The notes beneath the pieces were generated by a model, which had not been told where the DNA came from, made no database searches, and was given only the letters and a program-made list of their open reading frames with translations. The position numbers were made by a program, and so were the translations under genes. This document shows positions 2,107-35,773 of a stretch of DNA of 64,000 nt, one piece after another. Position 1 is the stretch's first letter. Every line of letters starts with the position of its first letter. This DNA comes from a phage. Location of the stretch: the sequence record PZ540767.1. One strand, written 5' to 3'.

Positions 2107-4854
2107 ATGGGACTCTTTAGCGGAAAGAAGAAAACGTACCGAGACTTTAGCTACTCTCGCCTAATTGAAGATGATTACCTGCCTGATGTTATGGGTCAGG
2201 CAGTTACTACGTATGTGCTGGATAAAGATAATACCAAATCACTTACTGATCTGATGCTGGAATATGGGTGGTCAGCTAACAATGTTAAGTGGGATGCTGC
2301 ATATCGCTGGGCCAAAAAAGGTAAGTATTTTTATGGCCTCCCTACTACCACTACTGTTACTGCTACTGACTTCACTGGTTCAGAGTCCTTAGAAGATGTT
2401 CTGCAATCACTCACAGGTCGTACAGATCTTACCTATGTATATAGTAAGTTTGTGCCTGGGAATTTCAGGCATGGTATGTGGCAGCAACTGATCTCAACTC
2501 AAAATTATAATGCCACTACTAATATCCTGGGATCTCTGACTTCATCTTTGGGCACTACGTGCTGGCTTCATAATGCTACTAACTATTTAACCAGTGAAAC
2601 CAGGGAAGCTGTAGAAGACACCATGCTGGAGCATTGGGGCTTGTCACCTAAGAGTGGAGCTACCAATATTCGAAGCCAGGATTTGAATGCTGCTGATACT
2701 CCTGATGGGGTTAGTGCCACTGGTTCCAATTATGTCCGTGTGGAGTATGCGTGTAGCTTTGCTGGGGTAGAACGAATTAAGACCGTGGAAACCACTAAGG
2801 TAACCACTACAATTAAAACCCCAGATCCCAATGAGGAAGGTAGCTACACAGAAGAGACTTCATCTACTTCTTCAGATACCACTACTAACACGACTAACTG
2901 GAATGGGGTAACTCTACCTAATAACGTGATCAGTGCAGTGGATGTAGGTACAGGTACTTCAGAGGTTACTGAAAGTGATCCTGTCGATACGCAAACTACA
3001 ACTGATGAAACTACTGGGGTAATTACAGAAGTCGTTACAGAGGTCACCAGAGTTATCACAACAAACACTGTTTCGATCAATGTTATTGCTTACTTCAATA
3101 TGTCGTTTGGGATCTATGACTACAACCCTGATTCTGAAACCATTGACACTACCACTGTGTTGGATGACCGAGATTCTGGGGATTATGATCCTACTGCTCC
3201 TCTGGTTCCAAGTGGGGAAGATACCGATGATTCCCCAGATTACTTCATGGTGTGTTATGAATATACCTCAGGGGGTACTCTCCATATTGGTTACTTTACC
3301 TATCAATATGGGTCTGGGAATTATCCTGCATTGGATGGGATCACAGGTACTGAGGTTGCCGACTTCGGACAACACTTCCCTCGTATGTATTTCCGTCTGG
3401 ATGGTAAACGCCTCATTTCAGATGAGTACTCACAAACTGAAGGCTATAAGACCAGTAAAAAGTTAGGTAATAAGCTGGACTTAGGTTGGTTAGATGTAGG
3501 AGAAGAAATTTATAATAGCTTGAGTTCTTTGGGCAAAATCAGAGATGTAATGATGATTCTTATGGTTCCTGCCAATACTGAAAATGCTATTGAACAGGAA
3601 TATCTCTATAACTATTTTCATACCCTCTGTATGTTACGTCCCCAGTACACTGAAAAAAACTGGACAATCTACTCAACTGAGTCTTCACAATCTGGTTCAG
3701 CTACAGTACCCCCATCAGATCTGGATACTTTTGATATGCGTTTAGGGGCTTTCATGGAGTCCTCTGACACATTTATTGCAACATCAAACCAGATGGACTG
3801 CCTGGGGTATGCTCGTATCACAGGCTCAATAGGTAACATTGGTGCCGTGGCTTCAGGGAGGGGTACAGGTAAGCTTCCCTTTAGATATGAATACAGACAG
3901 GATAATCAGCTTAAATACCGTTATGGTGTGAAAGATGTAGATTATCATTACTACAGAGTTCAGGTATCCAGCACTCAGTATGATGAAGTCAGGGTGTATA
4001 ACCTAAGCCACCAGGTTCGTGTAGGCGGTAAACAGGTTAACCGGAGTGGTTCCAGTGATGAACTCATGGTGCCTTTGGATCATGCTTTCAGAAAGCTGTT
4101 TAGTACTCATGAAAGAGAAACATTATATGCAAGGGCTGCTCAGATTTTAATCTGCACTGAGTATACAGTTAAGACTAAGTGGTATCAGACTAGCATTTTC
4201 AAGGCAATTACCGTTGTAATAGCTGTAGCTGTTTCTTGGTGGACTGGGGGAGCTTCTTTATCCATGATTAGTGTGTTAACTGCTGTAGCAACAACGGCAG
4301 CAACAATGATAGCTTTCTCACTATTGAGTAAGTATGTGTTCAGTAAACTGGGAAGTTGGGCTTCTATTCTGGCTACTGTAGTTGCTGTGGTCGCTGCTGT
4401 TTATGGGGGATATCTTGCTTATACAGGAACTACAGGCCCATATAGTTTAACTGCCCAAAATCTTATGCAGGCATCCAATGTTGCATTTAAAACTGCTGAT
4501 GCTTCCCTAAAAGGACAGCAAATAGCTATGCAGCAAAAGTTTGGATCTCTTCAGAAAGAGTTAGAAGAAAAGCAGGAAGTACTACAGCAAGCTCAAGATG
4601 AGTTAAACCAGGGTTCTAATACTATTTCTGACTGGATATTCCTACAGGCTACAAATGGCTATGTTAACTTAGGTGAAACACCTGATCAGATGATAACCCG
4701 TACTTTGAATACAAATATTGGAACACTGGCTTTACAGCTACCTGACGTATACCTAAGTCAGGCATTGTCTTTACCTTCACCTGTAGAGATCATGCAGTTT
4801 ATGCAACAAAAACTGTATACTGTTCCAGATGACGAACTCAATCCACTTACATGA
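2107..4854 (+). CDS. Large virion protein, Thr-rich with C-terminal transmembrane helices (putative ejection/internal protein)
   Basis: Track ORF 2077-4854 begins with TTG; first ATG at 2107 follows RBS gaggt; Thr-rich low-complexity region; two or more hydrophobic helices near C-terminus followed by coiled coil. Confidence 0.6.
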   Translation: MGLFSGKKKTYRDFSYSRLIEDDYLPDVMGQAVTTYVLDKDNTKSLTDLMLEYGWSANNVKWDAAYRWAKKGKYFYGLPTTTTVTATDFTGSESLEDVLQSLTGRTDLTYVYSKFVPGNFRHGMWQQLISTQNYNATTNILGSLTSSLGTTCWLHNATNYLTSETREAVEDTMLEHWGLSPKSGATNIRSQDLNAADTPDGVSATGSNYVRVEYACSFAGVERIKTVETTKVTTTIKTPDPNEEGSYTEETSSTSSDTTTNTTNWNGVTLPNNVISAVDVGTGTSEVTESDPVDTQTTTDETTGVITEVVTEVTRVITTNTVSINVIAYFNMSFGIYDYNPDSETIDTTTVLDDRDSGDYDPTAPLVPSGEDTDDSPDYFMVCYEYTSGGTLHIGYFTYQYGSGNYPALDGITGTEVADFGQHFPRMYFRLDGKRLISDEYSQTEGYKTSKKLGNKLDLGWLDVGEEIYNSLSSLGKIRDVMMILMVPANTENAIEQEYLYNYFHTLCMLRPQYTEKNWTIYSTESSQSGSATVPPSDLDTFDMRLGAFMESSDTFIATSNQMDCLGYARITGSIGNIGAVASGRGTGKLPFRYEYRQDNQLKYRYGVKDVDYHYYRVQVSSTQYDEVRVYNLSHQVRVGGKQVNRSGSSDELMVPLDHAFRKLFSTHERETLYARAAQILICTEYTVKTKWYQTSIFKAITVVIAVAVSWWTGGASLSMISVLTAVATTAATMIAFSLLSKYVFSKLGSWASILATVVAVVAAVYGGYLAYTGTTGPYSLTAQNLMQASNVAFKTADASLKGQQIAMQQKFGSLQKELEEKQEVLQQAQDELNQGSNTISDWIFLQATNGYVNLGETPDQMITRTLNTNIGTLALQLPDVYLSQALSLPSPVEIMQFMQQKLYTVPDDELNPLT

Positions 4855-34030: not shown

Positions 34031-34048
34031 TAGCTACCAGCATGAATA

Positions 34049-34073
34049 AGCCCCCATTTGGGGGCTTTTTTAT
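34049..34073 (+). terminator. Intrinsic terminator
   Basis: agccccc-attt-gggggct hairpin followed by TTTTTT. Confidence 0.65.
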
Positions 34074-34254
34074 TACCCTGTTAAACCTAAAAGGTTATCA
34101 GGATCCTTTACCGCCGTATCTTTGATAAAGGCAAAGGGAACGATGATCTTCCCGAAATGGAAGGCATTAGCACTTTCTACAATTTTATTTGCTTTGAAAG
34201 TGAGTGCACCATTATTTCTGAAAAAGATAGTTATCTCAGCTGGAATTTTGTCTG

Positions 34255-34485
34255 TCATAGAGAGGCAATCCTGTGAGTTGCAGCCCTGATACGACTAATA
34301 CGCTTAGTGTGTATTGTCTCATTTCTGTCGTAGCCTCGGGCATTTCTACGAATGGTTTCACACTCTGCCCTATAGGCAGGAGTCTGAGTTTGTTTTTGTA
34401 GGATCTTAGAACATTTAGAGTGAACTCGTTTATTTCGTAAGATCCCACAGATTGGACATACGTTAAATGTTGGACTGAAAATCAT
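34255..34485 (-). CDS. Small basic Cys-containing protein (possible zinc ribbon), coupled to dam
   Basis: ATG overlaps dam stop (ATGA); 'CPICG...HSKC' motif. Confidence 0.35.
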   Translation of the reverse strand: MIFSPTFNVCPICGILRNKRVHSKCSKILQKQTQTPAYRAECETIRRNARGYDRNETIHTKRISRIRAATHRIASL

Positions 34486-35288
34486 GGTTTTAGTACAGCA
34501 ATGATATCTTTGGCTACTTCTCGTGATTCAGCTTTAGCTGAGATGCTACGAGTTGCAGTTAATGGGTGAATGTCAAAACCAGCTTTGGTATAGAGATCAA
34601 CTAAACGTGGAGCACTACTATTTGTAATGACCACTCTTACACCTCTGGCTTTAAGCTCAAGAGCTTTACCTACCAGACGTTTCTGATCTCCCCACTTAAA
34701 GCTGGTGCCACTATAGCTTGTGAACCCCTGATGTTTAGGCATAGGCTCATAAGGTGGATCACAAAATACAACATTACCTTCCTCAGCAGTGTTCATAAAT
34801 AACATGAAGTCTGTATTTGCTACTGTTGGTTTCAAACCAGAATTGATGAAATCTCTGAGTTCCTGTTCAGGGAAGTAAGGTTGTTCTTTCTGGCCCCAAG
34901 GAACATTGAATTCCTTTTTCTTGTTGTAACGACACAGGCCATTAAAGCCAGTACGATTGAGCACCAGGAAGAACACGGCTTTAGACAGGGAATTGAACTT
35001 ACCACTGTTAAAGTTAGCCCTGAGCTGATTGTAGCGAGCTTCTGAGTTACACCACTCATGCAGTTTCTTTGCCTGGTTCAATACATAATCACCATTATGG
35101 ATGAGGGCTAAGTAGAGCTGGCATAGATCAGGATTTACATCATTGATAGCCACCTTATCGAAACCAGCATTCATAAATACTGATCCTGCACCCACAAAAG
35201 GTTCAATGAGACGATTACCAACTAAGAATGGTTGGATTTGAGGAAGCTGGCGATACTTGCCACCTGCCCACTTAAGCCAAGGTTTCAT
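34482..35288 (-). CDS. dam: DNA N6-adenine methyltransferase (Dam-like)
   Basis: 'KWAGGKY' N-terminus, 'EPFVGAGSVF' AdoMet motif, 'FCDPPY' catalytic motif. Confidence 0.8.
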   Translation of the reverse strand: MKPWLKWAGGKYRQLPQIQPFLVGNRLIEPFVGAGSVFMNAGFDKVAINDVNPDLCQLYLALIHNGDYVLNQAKKLHEWCNSEARYNQLRANFNSGKFNSLSKAVFFLVLNRTGFNGLCRYNKKKEFNVPWGQKEQPYFPEQELRDFINSGLKPTVANTDFMLFMNTAEEGNVVFCDPPYEPMPKHQGFTSYSGTSFKWGDQKRLVGKALELKARGVRVVITNSSAPRLVDLYTKAGFDIHPLTATRSISAKAESREVAKDIIAVLKP

Positions 35289-35397
35289 TTGAGCACCAAT
35301 GCTAACAGGTTCATAACGAGTTCATTGGCTTGATAGGCCAAGAACCAGAAGGCACCCAGCAGTATTGCCAGTATGCACCACACTTTTCCGCGAAAGC

Positions 35398-35736
35398 TCA
35401 TAAAATTCCTATCCTCTTTTTGAGTAAAATTTCAGCAGTTAAAGGGACTGATACTTGAACTTTGATGGGTAATACAACATCATCATAGATATCCCAGGCA
35501 TCCCCTTCAGTAAGTGCTATCGTCCCTTCCCCTAACTCATTTAATACAATGACTTGATCATGAGGGCAGTACCAGCTATCACTACGTTCTCGGAACATAA
35601 TTACTGTTTTTTCTACTTCAATGAATTGGTCATTGAATATTGTAAAAGTGTCGTCTACCTCTACTCCTACTTCCCTGTTATTTAGCAGGATGATAATACC
35701 TGTAATAGTAGTTAGATCCATTGCAGTAATCTGCAT
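35398..35736 (-). CDS. Hypothetical protein (112 aa)
   Basis: Track start is TTG; first ATG 35736 follows ggaggg RBS. Confidence 0.45.
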   Translation of the reverse strand: MQITAMDLTTITGIIILLNNREVGVEVDDTFTIFNDQFIEVEKTVIMFRERSDSWYCPHDQVIVLNELGEGTIALTEGDAWDIYDDVVLPIKVQVSVPLTAEILLKKRIGIL

Positions 35737-35748
35737 GATCCCCTCCAA

Positions 35749-35773
35749 TGAAAAAGCCCTCCGAAGAGGGCTT
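35749..35773 (-). terminator. C(UUCG)G tetraloop terminator/attenuator
   Basis: On - strand: 8-bp stem with UUCG loop then UUUU, immediately followed by RBS of next gene. Confidence 0.5.

What the first reader, a model, noticed from the sequence alone, without database searches (positions are those of the whole stretch)
34255..35288. Dam methyltransferase translationally coupled to a small Cys-containing protein
A Dam-like N6-adenine methylase ('FCDPPY') is followed by an ATGA-overlapped 76-aa basic protein with a CPxCG...HxxC pattern. Phage Dam enzymes often serve anti-restriction or packaging roles; the coupled zinc-ribbon-like protein could be a specificity or regulatory partner.
Basis: partly seen in the sequence, partly recalled or inferred. 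Interest (0 to 1): 0.35.

Follow-up and report, generated by a model that had tools for sequence, protein, structure and literature searches.

The report
Phage Dam methylase plus zinc-knuckle protein
A Klebsiella N4-like phage carries an ordinary GATC-type DNA adenine methylase whose stop codon overlaps the start of a small, real, zinc-binding basic protein of unknown function; that small protein also occurs in phages with no methylase, so it is probably an independent accessory gene, not a methylase partner.

Summary
There is a 268-aa Dam (34482..35288) and a 76-aa basic protein (34255..34485), joined by an ATGA stop/start overlap.

**Dam:** it is an orthodox orphan Dam-family enzyme. It has a full-length D12/TIGR00571 match, DPPY, and the EcoDam GATC-contact residues. 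GATC is not avoided in this genome, whereas the two related phages checked that lack a Dam avoid it.

**Small ORF:** it is a real gene (dN/dS 0.06-0.25) with no Shine-Dalgarno sequence of its own, so it is probably translated by reinitiation after Dam. It belongs to a small phage-only family (PHROG 6887, function unknown) with invariant C-x2-C-x8-H-x2-C-S-x3-Q. The predicted fold is a zinc knuckle plus basic helices. It is not a zinc ribbon, and no solved structure resembles it.

**Linkage to Dam:** adjacency is confined to one syntenic N4-like lineage.
- In Cbunavirus, other genes lie between the two.
- In Erwinia phage Ea9-2, they are 16 kb apart.
- In Gamaleyavirus and Kuravirus, the small gene sits among early genes of genomes that encode no Dam.
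- No fusions to larger proteins were found.

**Verdict:** the Dam reading is supported. The "specificity or regulatory partner" idea is not supported, though it is not strictly excluded. This is an ordinary finding of low interest.

The parts
34482..35288 (-). Orphan Dam-family (D12 class) N6-adenine DNA methyltransferase, 268 aa, predicted GATC-specific
   Evidence: Pfam PF02086 3.3e-47, full length. TIGR00571 219.7 bits, above the 114.85 cut-off. EcoDam PDB 2g1p/4gol E 4e-50. K6, F115, N116, L118, R120 and P130 correspond to EcoDam K9, Y119, N120, L122, R124 and P134. The best PADLOC hit is an orphan MTase. dN/dS 0.01-0.16.
34749..34760 (-). Catalytic motif IV, DPPY (Dam residues 177-180)
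   Evidence: Read directly from the sequence.
34255..34485 (-). 76-aa basic CCHC zinc-knuckle protein, PHROG 6887 family, function unknown
   Evidence: PHROG 6887 E 9.6e-13; all 19 aligned family members match it. dN/dS 0.06-0.25. The AlphaFold2 model (pLDDT 91) shows a knuckle, helix 23-34 and helix 36-75. pI 10.9.
34411..34458 (-). Codons for the invariant metal-ligand motif C10-x2-C13-x8-H22-x2-C25
   Evidence: C10, C13, H22, C25 and S26 are invariant in 19 sequences that are 29-79% identical to the window protein.
34482..34485 (-). ATGA stop/start overlap between Dam and the CCHC gene
   Evidence: Sequence. The upstream 20 nt have no Shine-Dalgarno complementarity (+0.9 kcal/mol). The overlap is kept in every Efbeekayvirus-lineage locus that has enough flank, down to 53% Dam identity.
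35285..35401 (-). 38-aa hydrophobic ORF, ATGA-coupled upstream of Dam; it carries the strongest ribosome-binding site measured among the four coupled starts from here to the 61-aa gene
   Evidence: dN/dS 0.00-0.26. Shine-Dalgarno duplex -6.6 against -2.8 for Dam. Annotated as a separate gene in several relatives.
35398..35748 (-). First gene of the cassette (about 112-116 aa, no family match); its stop overlaps the 38-aa ORF start
   Evidence: ORF list. No Pfam, PHROG or NCBIfam match. Annotated in relatives. The exact start codon is uncertain.
34073..34258 (-). 61-aa ORF, ATGA-coupled downstream of the CCHC gene; last gene of the cassette
   Evidence: dN/dS 0.03-0.24. Counterparts follow the CCHC gene in metagenomic relatives L008 and L012. 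Weak similarity to the 61-aa gene that follows Dam in Cbunavirus.
35754..35773 (-). Terminator-like hairpin upstream of the cassette
   Evidence: A terminator is annotated at the same place in FBKp27.
34048..34067 (.). GC-rich hairpin between the convergent cassette and the Hoc-like late gene; a likely bidirectional terminator
   Evidence: One search detected it on the + strand only. FBKp27 has terminators annotated on both strands at this place.

Best explanation
The window comes from a Klebsiella N4-like phage of the genus Efbeekayvirus. On its minus strand, at the end of the replication (middle) gene block, sits a five-gene cassette flanked by terminator-like hairpins: 116 aa, 38 aa, Dam, 76 aa, 61 aa. 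All five genes are joined by ATGA overlaps.

Dam (largely shown). It is a self-sufficient orphan methyltransferase that most probably methylates the adenine of GATC on replicating phage DNA. I infer that this spares the phage whatever selects against GATC in relatives that lack a Dam. Recalled candidates for that selection are enzymes that cut unmethylated GATC, and MutH or SeqA acting on un- or hemimethylated sites.

The 76-aa gene (existence shown, function inferred). It is a separate accessory gene of a small phage-only family. A C-x2-C-x8-H-x2-C site, probably binding zinc, holds a short hairpin against the start of a basic helix that carries invariant Ser and conserved Gln, and a long charged helix follows. 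I infer that it binds nucleic acid, or possibly a host protein, during early or middle infection, independently of Dam.

The link between the two (inferred). The link is one of expression only. The small gene has no ribosome-binding site, so it is made by ribosomes that terminate on Dam and reinitiate. That ties its amount and timing to the cassette.
For: Identity of the phage: 92-94% nucleotide identity to Efbeekayvirus genomes.

Dam:
- Family membership.
- DNA-contact residues known from EcoDam structures (PMC4417163) are conserved.
- GATC observed/expected (Markov): 1.16 in the window, 0.96 in Ea9-2, which has its own Dam, and about 1 in Cbunavirus loci. In Dam-less Bp4 it is 0.13 (30 sites in 72.6 kb) and in SU10 0.46.

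Small gene:
- It is under purifying selection.
- The family is small and phage-only: 17 representative clusters among 1.8 billion proteins, all 49-78 aa apart from one low-complexity 175-aa match that I judged spurious and left out of the alignment.
- The motif is invariant, the model is confident, and pI is 9.7-11.2 throughout the family.

Independence from Dam:
- Cluster tally: 6 clusters have a Dam within 1 kb upstream, and all 6 carry a Dam 53-100% identical to the window's; those with enough flank to read gene order show the same N4-like synteny. 10 clusters have none.
- SU10 and Bp4 have no Dam and no [DNS]PP[YFW] ORF anywhere in the genome.
- In Ea9-2 the two genes are 16 kb apart.
- In Cbunavirus, intervening genes separate them, and the small gene is coupled to an 89-aa gene that looks like a helix-turn-helix protein by eye.
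- Short 46-59 aa versions lie beside RecT/YqaJ, helicase and NinB genes in environmental phage contigs.

Coupling: Shine-Dalgarno energies and the run of four ATGA junctions.
Against: - No experiment bears on either protein. GATC specificity, metal binding and nucleic-acid binding are all inferred.
- The Dam-to-CCHC ATGA junction is the most persistent junction of the cassette. It is kept while the small protein diverges to 36-42% identity. All 33 GenBank phage records whose Dam is at least 54% identical also hold a family member; in those whose positions I checked it lies within about 700 bp downstream of Dam. A functional tie within this lineage therefore cannot be ruled out.
- The cultured family-bearing phages found here infect enterobacteria, which I recall to be Dam-positive. 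The phages without a Dam therefore do not exclude a role connected with host GATC methylation.
- Fold searches gave no analogue, so the nucleic-acid-binding inference rests only on charge, the exposed Ser and Gln, and the knuckle-plus-helix layout.
- The GATC comparison covers few genomes.
Confidence: 0.62

Rival explanations
1. The 76-aa protein is a dedicated partner of the phage Dam. It would bind Dam or its DNA substrate and alter specificity, processivity or timing. Translational coupling would then ensure matched amounts.
For: - The ATGA overlap with no Shine-Dalgarno sequence is conserved through the Efbeekayvirus lineage down to 53% Dam identity.
- Every phage record with this Dam clade also has a family member, which lies in the same operon tail in those whose positions were checked.
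- The protein is basic and likely to be DNA-binding.
Against: - The family occurs in genomes with no Dam (SU10 and Bp4) and 16 kb from Dam in Ea9-2.
- In Cbunavirus it is separated from Dam by one or two genes and is ATGA-coupled to another gene.
- Family members also lie beside recombination and replication genes in environmental phages.
- No Dam-CCHC fusion turned up in 1.8 billion representative proteins.
- Dam is full-length and keeps the EcoDam DNA contacts.
- Dam and the small gene have different recombination histories within the genus (Dam dS 0.15 against small-gene dS 0.50 versus HS106).
- Co-occurrence inside one syntenic block is inherited, so it is not independent evidence.
Confidence: 0.1
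2. The 76-aa protein is a host-takeover or anti-defence factor that works by binding a host protein rather than nucleic acid. It would sit next to Dam because counter-defence genes tend to cluster.
For: - In Gamaleyavirus, Kuravirus, Johnsonvirus and an N4-like metagenomic contig, the gene lies among small early genes. I recall that host-takeover genes usually sit there.
- Dam is itself a counter-restriction function.
- The gene exchanges as a module between related phages.
- The C-terminal helix is variable and is absent in the short versions, as expected for a fast-evolving interaction surface.
Against: - There is no match to any known anti-defence or defence-related family (one search covers defence models only).
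- The uniformly high pI and the basic cluster around the conserved helix fit nucleic acid better than a protein surface.
- No experimental data exist.
Confidence: 0.2
3. The small ORF is a chance reading frame or a remnant, and the overlap with Dam is meaningless.
For: It is short, has no Pfam family and no ribosome-binding site.
Against: - dN/dS is 0.06-0.25 with many synonymous changes.
- Homologues at 29-79% identity keep an invariant motif.
- The structure model is confident.
- It matches PHROG 6887.
Confidence: 0.01

Closest known systems
Escherichia coli Dam (EcoDam) and orphan phage Dam methyltransferases (D12 class, TIGR00571)
   Same: - Full-length alignment to EcoDam structures (E 4e-50).
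- The FxGxG AdoMet motif, DPPY, and the GATC-contact residues K9, N120, L122, R124 and P134 are conserved.
- No restriction enzyme gene lies nearby.
- The genome tolerates GATC.
   Different: - It scores below NCBI's equivalog cut-off for cellular Dam (217.7 against 441 bits).
- EcoDam Y119 is F and Y138 is K.
- The gene sits in a five-gene translationally coupled cassette of an N4-like phage.
- Activity has not been tested.
PHROG 6887 (with 10699 and 17140): small phage proteins of unknown function, e.g. Bp4 gp9.1, annotated as similar to phiEco32 phi32_122
   Same: The window protein and all 19 aligned relatives match PHROG 6887. They share the C-x2-C-x8-H-x2-C-S-x3-Q signature, their length, and a basic pI.
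   Different: Only in the Efbeekayvirus lineage does the gene overlap a Dam gene. In most other phages it is an early-region gene with other neighbours.
Phage Mu Com/Mom (a small zinc-finger protein encoded next to a DNA-modification gene)
   Same: A small Cys-rich protein whose gene overlaps that of a DNA-modifying enzyme. This rests on recalled knowledge of Mu.
   Different: - As I recall, Com is encoded upstream of mom and activates its translation. Here the small gene is downstream of Dam and depends on Dam's translation.
Treble-clef and zinc-knuckle DNA-binding modules (GATA or nuclear-receptor type) and the retroviral CCHC knuckle
   Same: A CxxC knuckle is followed by two ligands at the start of a basic helix. 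The CCHC ligand set matches that of the retroviral knuckle.
   Different: - The spacing is x8 and x2, against C-x2-C-x4-H-x4-C for PF00098 or x13-17 for the treble-clef modules.
- There are no Pfam, PDB-sequence or Foldseek matches.

Membership tests
Dam family, D12-class N6-adenine DNA methyltransferase (PF02086 / TIGR00571) | Full-length profile match above the curated thresholds | tested here: met
   PF02086: 161.8 bits (cut-off 22), profile positions 1-253 of 253. TIGR00571: 219.7 bits (cut-off 114.85).
Dam family, D12-class N6-adenine DNA methyltransferase (PF02086 / TIGR00571) | Catalytic motif IV (D/N)PP(Y/F) and AdoMet-binding motif I (FxGxG) | tested here: met
   DPPY at residues 177-180; EPFVGAGS from about residue 29.
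Dam family, D12-class N6-adenine DNA methyltransferase (PF02086 / TIGR00571) | Residues that read GATC in EcoDam: R124, L122, P134, N120, K9, and an aromatic residue at 119 | tested here: met
   R120, L118, P130, N116, K6 and F115 align to them (residue roles from PMC4417163). Y138 is replaced by K134.
Dam family, D12-class N6-adenine DNA methyltransferase (PF02086 / TIGR00571) | m6A methylation of GATC in vivo or in vitro | not testable with these tools
   Indirect support only: GATC is not avoided in phages that carry a Dam but is avoided in the Dam-less relatives checked.
Cellular Dam equivalog (NF008152, E. coli-type housekeeping Dam) | Score above the equivalog cut-off | tested here: not met
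   217.7 bits against a cut-off of 441. It is a family member, not the cellular orthologue.
   The second ligand pair is HxxC at the N-terminus of helix 23-34 in a model with pLDDT 91. The window protein has no Pfam hit at E<=1. Only 1 of 19 members touches Zn_Ribbon_1, at E 0.04.
Retroviral-type CCHC zinc knuckle (PF00098) | C-x2-C-x4-H-x4-C spacing and a profile match | tested here: not met
   The spacing is C-x2-C-x8-H-x2-C. No Pfam match.
PHROG 6887 (phage proteins of unknown function) | Profile match over the whole length | tested here: met
   E 9.6e-13, residues 1-71. 19 of 19 aligned relatives match, best E 9.7e-41.
Methyltransferase accessory, specificity or controller proteins | Consistent co-occurrence with, and adjacency to, the methyltransferase across independent lineages | tested here: not met
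   Adjacency is found in one syntenic lineage only. 10 of 16 informative clusters have no Dam within 1 kb. SU10 and Bp4 have no Dam at all. In Ea9-2 the genes are 16 kb apart.
Methyltransferase accessory, specificity or controller proteins | Physical or functional interaction with the methyltransferase | not testable with these tools
   The structure tool offers neither complex prediction nor interface scores. No fusion proteins were found.

The most novel reading that the evidence does not exclude
The CCHC family could be a reader or modulator of GATC methylation. It would bind GATC-containing DNA, or Dam itself whether phage or host, and so tune methylation or shield un- or hemimethylated phage DNA. 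That would explain why it is hard-wired to Dam translation in one lineage yet is also useful to Dam-less phages of enterobacteria, which I recall to be Dam-positive.
Probability: 0.07. Interest if true: 0.55.

Novelty: new member of a known kind. Interest (0 to 1): 0.2.

Why it matters
It matters little. Orphan Dam genes are common in phages, and this one looks conventional.

Three modest points have some value:
- PHROG 6887 can now be described as a minimal CCHC knuckle-plus-basic-helix module. It spreads across N4-like, phiEco32-like and environmental phages, has no structural analogue in the libraries searched, and is left unannotated in several deposited genomes.
- In the few genomes compared here, N4-like phages with their own Dam keep GATC, while the Dam-less relatives checked are depleted of it.
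- The five-gene ATGA-linked cassette is a handy natural case for studying chained termination-reinitiation.

If the small protein turned out to act on GATC methylation, it would be a new kind of methylation accessory factor. The present evidence points the other way.

Tried and rejected
Searches on the small protein that gave nothing useful:
- Sequence search against PDB chains: no hit for the single sequence. The family profile picked up only the generic rubredoxin CPxCG knuckle at E about 0.4.
- Foldseek with the pLDDT-91 model: nothing in the PDB below E 8. In BFVD, only its own FBKp27 orthologue.
- Pfam, NCBIfam and PADLOC: nothing significant.
- The word-indexed homologue search found only close relatives. 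The exhaustive profile search was needed to reach the wider family.
- The search for related loci with the diverse alignment failed for lack of a conserved stretch.

Candidate relationships considered and rejected:
- A programmed frameshift fusing Dam to the small ORF: I saw no slippery heptamer at the junction and no fused homologues exist. By-eye judgement only.

A correction made on the way: I first thought that Cbunavirus phages CB4 and Kc283 lacked the small gene. A search with the MIF8 homologue showed that it is present but unannotated, two genes downstream of Dam.

Literature: searches on Efbeekayvirus, FBKp27, phiEco32 and N4-like Dam, and the four papers searched for relevant terms, turned up nothing on the small protein and only a generic remark on the methylase.

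Not attempted: co-folding Dam with the small protein.
Full report
**What is there**

The finding lies on the minus strand. ORF listing and direct reading show a 268-aa ORF at 34482..35288 and a 76-aa ORF at 34255..34485. The TGA of the first and the ATG of the second form ATGA at 34482-34485.

The window is 92-94% identical in this region to Klebsiella phages cp20, pKP-BM327-1.2, P19-618 and FBKp27. FBKp27 is classified in Schitoviridae, genus Efbeekayvirus, so this is an N4-like phage.

The two genes close the minus-strand block that starts with DNA polymerase. They face the convergent Hoc-like, spanin, holin and endolysin genes.

**The methyltransferase**

The 268-aa protein is a Dam-family enzyme on every test I could run.
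- It matches Pfam PF02086 over the whole model (3.3e-47).
- It scores above the cut-off for TIGR00571 'dam' (219.7 against 114.85 bits).
- It scores below the cut-off for the cellular Dam equivalog (217.7 against 441 bits).
- It aligns end to end with EcoDam crystal structures (E 4e-50) and with DpnM (E 2e-38).
- It has EPFVGAGS (motif I) and DPPY at residues 177-180.

The EcoDam residues that read GATC are R124, L122, P134, N120, K9 and the intercalating Y119 (roles from PMC4417163). They correspond to R120, L118, P130, N116, K6 and F115 here. EcoDam Y138 is K134.

None of the neighbouring ORFs tested matched any protein family, so nothing nearby looks like a restriction enzyme. The best PADLOC model is an orphan methyltransferase.

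Indirect evidence fits GATC as the target.
- The window holds 382 GATC sites. Observed/expected is 1.57 from base composition and 1.16 from a Markov model.
- Bp4 (Gamaleyavirus) has no Dam and only 30 sites in 72.6 kb (O/E 0.13). SU10 (Kuravirus) has no Dam and O/E 0.46.
- Ea9-2, which has its own Dam, shows O/E 0.96. The short Cbunavirus and MIF8 loci show 0.9-1.1.

As I recall, depletion of GATC in enterobacterial phages that lack their own Dam is a long-known pattern. The sample here is small.

**The small ORF is a real gene**

Against five relatives, the 76-aa ORF has dN/dS of 0.06-0.25 with up to 34 synonymous differences. For comparison, Dam gives 0.01-0.16, the 38-aa ORF upstream 0.00-0.26, and the 61-aa ORF downstream 0.03-0.24.

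The small protein matches PHROG 6887 (unknown function) at E 1e-12. A profile search of 1.84 billion representative proteins found 17 clusters at E<=1e-3. All were 49-78 aa apart from one low-complexity 175-aa match that I judged spurious and left out of the alignment.

In an alignment of 19 members that are 29-79% identical to the window protein, C10, C13, H22, C25 and S26 are invariant, and Q30 is conserved in at least 90% of sequences.

All 19 members match PHROG 6887, 14 match PHROG 10699 and 11 match PHROG 17140. No Pfam family is shared among them. Every member is basic, with pI 9.7-11.2.

**Structure of the small protein**

AlphaFold2 with this alignment gives mean pLDDT 91.4. The model has a short hairpin carrying C10 and C13, helix 23-34 starting at H22/C25, and a long helix 36-75.

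This is a knuckle-plus-helix zinc site, not a zinc ribbon. The spacing also differs from the retroviral CCHC knuckle.

- Foldseek found nothing in the PDB (best E 8). In BFVD it found only the FBKp27 orthologue.
- Sequence and profile searches of PDB chains gave only the generic rubredoxin knuckle.

Versions of 46-59 aa from freshwater and marine contigs keep only the knuckle and the first helix. I take that 30-residue module to be the functional core. The conserved basic residues, together with the invariant Ser and conserved Gln of helix 1, make nucleic-acid binding the most economical reading. That is inference only.

**Translational coupling**

The 20 nt before the small ORF's ATG have no complementarity to the 16S rRNA 3' end (+0.9 kcal/mol). 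The other values are:

| Gene | Duplex energy (kcal/mol) |
|---|---|
| 76-aa CCHC gene | +0.9 |
| Dam | -2.8 |
| 61-aa ORF | -4.1 |
| 38-aa ORF | -6.6 |
| DNA polymerase, 166-aa, 124-aa, Hoc-like, lysozyme and holin genes | -5.6 to -7.7 |

The small gene is therefore probably translated by termination-reinitiation.

The coupling is not particular to Dam and the small gene. The 116-aa, 38-aa, Dam, 76-aa and 61-aa genes are linked by four consecutive ATGA overlaps. They lie between terminator-like hairpins at 35754..35773 and 34048..34067. In a crude gene model, 9 of 74 same-strand junctions in the window have a 4-nt overlap, and four of those nine are in this cassette.

**Is the small protein tied to Dam?**

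Within the Efbeekayvirus lineage, yes, as gene order.
- The junction is ATGA in every locus with enough flank (26 of 26).
- The same holds in metagenomic relatives whose Dam is 72%, 70% and 53% identical and whose small protein is 36-42% identical.

Outside that lineage the tie loosens step by step.
- Erwinia phage MIF8: the small gene follows Dam after a 6-nt gap and has its own GAGG. In Enterobacter phage SABI the hit coordinates put it about 9 nt after Dam.
- Cbunavirus (CB4, Kc283, EK8; Dam 59-60% identical): a 61-aa gene lies between the two, and in CB4 and Kc283 an 89-aa gene as well. I judged the 89-aa protein to be helix-turn-helix-like by eye only. In CB4 and Kc283 the small gene is unannotated and is ATGA-coupled to the 89-aa gene.
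- Erwinia phage Ea9-2 (Johnsonvirus): the small gene is an early gene at 3.0 kb, and a Dam that is 38% identical lies at 19.2 kb.
- Gamaleyavirus Bp4 (gp9.1) and Kuravirus SU10: the small gene sits among small early genes. Neither genome encodes a Dam, nor any ORF over 120 aa with a [DNS]PP[YFW] motif.
- Environmental short versions: they lie beside RecT/YqaJ, a helicase, NinB and DUF1376 genes.

I grouped all loci into clusters at 60% identity. Six clusters have a Dam within 1 kb upstream. All six carry a Dam 53-100% identical to the window's, and those with enough flank to read gene order share the same N4-like synteny. Ten clusters with adequate flank have none.

Within the genus the three genes also have different histories. 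Against HS106, dS is 0.15 for Dam, 0.50 for the small gene and 2.0 for the 61-aa gene. Against pKP-BM327-1.2, the values are 0.20, 0.06 and 0.42. Recombination therefore shuffles them as separate modules.

**Conclusion and caveats**

The Dam identification stands.

The small protein is best seen as an autonomous accessory gene. In this lineage it happens to ride on Dam's ribosomes. The proposal that it is a specificity or regulatory partner has no positive support beyond inherited adjacency. It is contradicted by the family's distribution.

It is not strictly excluded, for two reasons.
- The cultured phages found here that carry the family infect enterobacteria, which I recall to be Dam-positive.
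- The junction is notably persistent in one lineage.

I give the partner reading about 0.1. I give a protein-binding host-takeover or anti-defence role about 0.2. I give the reading above (independent, probably nucleic-acid-binding) about 0.6.

Nothing here is surprising to a specialist. The interest lies mainly in tidying the annotation and in a clear description of PHROG 6887.

Noticed in passing
window 34073..35748 (-): Five genes (116 aa, 38 aa, Dam, 76 aa, 61 aa) are linked by four consecutive ATGA overlaps between two terminator-like hairpins. In a crude gene model only 9 of 74 same-strand junctions in the window have a 4-nt overlap, so this is an unusually tight coupled cassette. The 38-aa ORF's Shine-Dalgarno sequence is the strongest measured among the four coupled starts from there on.
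   Followed up: partly
window 34073..34258 (-): The 61-aa ORF after the small gene is under purifying selection (dN/dS 0.03-0.24). It is not annotated in RefSeq FBKp27, where ATA replaces the start codon, and it is truncated in Halo_KS_7. Counterparts follow the CCHC gene in metagenomic relatives. A weakly similar 61-aa gene follows Dam in Cbunavirus. No family match.
   Followed up: partly
window 35285..35401 (-); L001 3105..4004; L006 1605..2504: FBKp27 and Halo_KS_7 annotate Dam as 299 aa. In the window the Dam frame allows only 268 aa, and the EcoDam alignment starts at residue 3. The overlapping 38-aa hydrophobic ORF is conserved (dN/dS up to 0.26). The 299-aa gene models therefore look over-extended.
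   Followed up: partly
whole window; L035+L036 (SU10); L037+L038 (Bp4); L051 (Ea9-2): GATC observed/expected (Markov) is 1.16 in the window and 0.96 in Ea9-2, both of which have their own Dam. It is 0.13 in Bp4 (30 sites in 72.6 kb) and 0.46 in SU10, neither of which has a Dam.
   Followed up: partly
whole window: CTAG is strongly under-represented: 40 observed against 157 expected (O/E 0.26). GCGC (18) and CGCG (13) are far below the 155 expected from base composition.
   Followed up: no
L002 4001..4225 (SU10); L047 and L048, about 3763..3990 (CB4, Kc283): Homologues of the small CCHC protein are present but unannotated in the deposited genomes of Kuravirus SU10 and Cbunavirus CB4 and Kc283. 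In CB4 and Kc283 the gene is ATGA-coupled to an 89-aa gene that looks helix-turn-helix-like by eye (no profile search was run on it).
   Followed up: yes
window 34073..35288 compared with L004 and L007: Divergence is mosaic. Against HS106, dS is 0.15 (Dam), 0.50 (small gene) and 2.0 (61-aa gene). Against pKP-BM327-1.2, it is 0.20, 0.06 and 0.42. This implies recombination breakpoints at or near the gene boundaries.
   Followed up: partly
L062, L066, L067, L091, L072, L063, L061: Versions of 46-59 aa with only the CCHC knuckle and the first helix occur in freshwater and marine phage contigs. In the contigs whose neighbours were scanned (L062, L072, L090, L091) they lie beside RecT/YqaJ, an intein-containing helicase, NinB, DUF1376 and LPD38 genes. 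That extends the family beyond enterobacterial phages.
   Followed up: partly
L009 188..694; L047 1992..2504: In some relatives an HNH_3 homing-endonuclease gene sits immediately upstream of Dam and overlaps it by 4 nt. In the window the 116-aa and 38-aa genes occupy that place.
   Followed up: no
L053 1281..1505: A 74-aa copy of the CCHC gene, very similar to the one on IMG/VR viral contig L017, lies on a contig binned into a GTDB genome titled 'MAG: archaeon isolate PL23a_bin.95'. This is probably a phage contig that was mis-binned.
   Followed up: no
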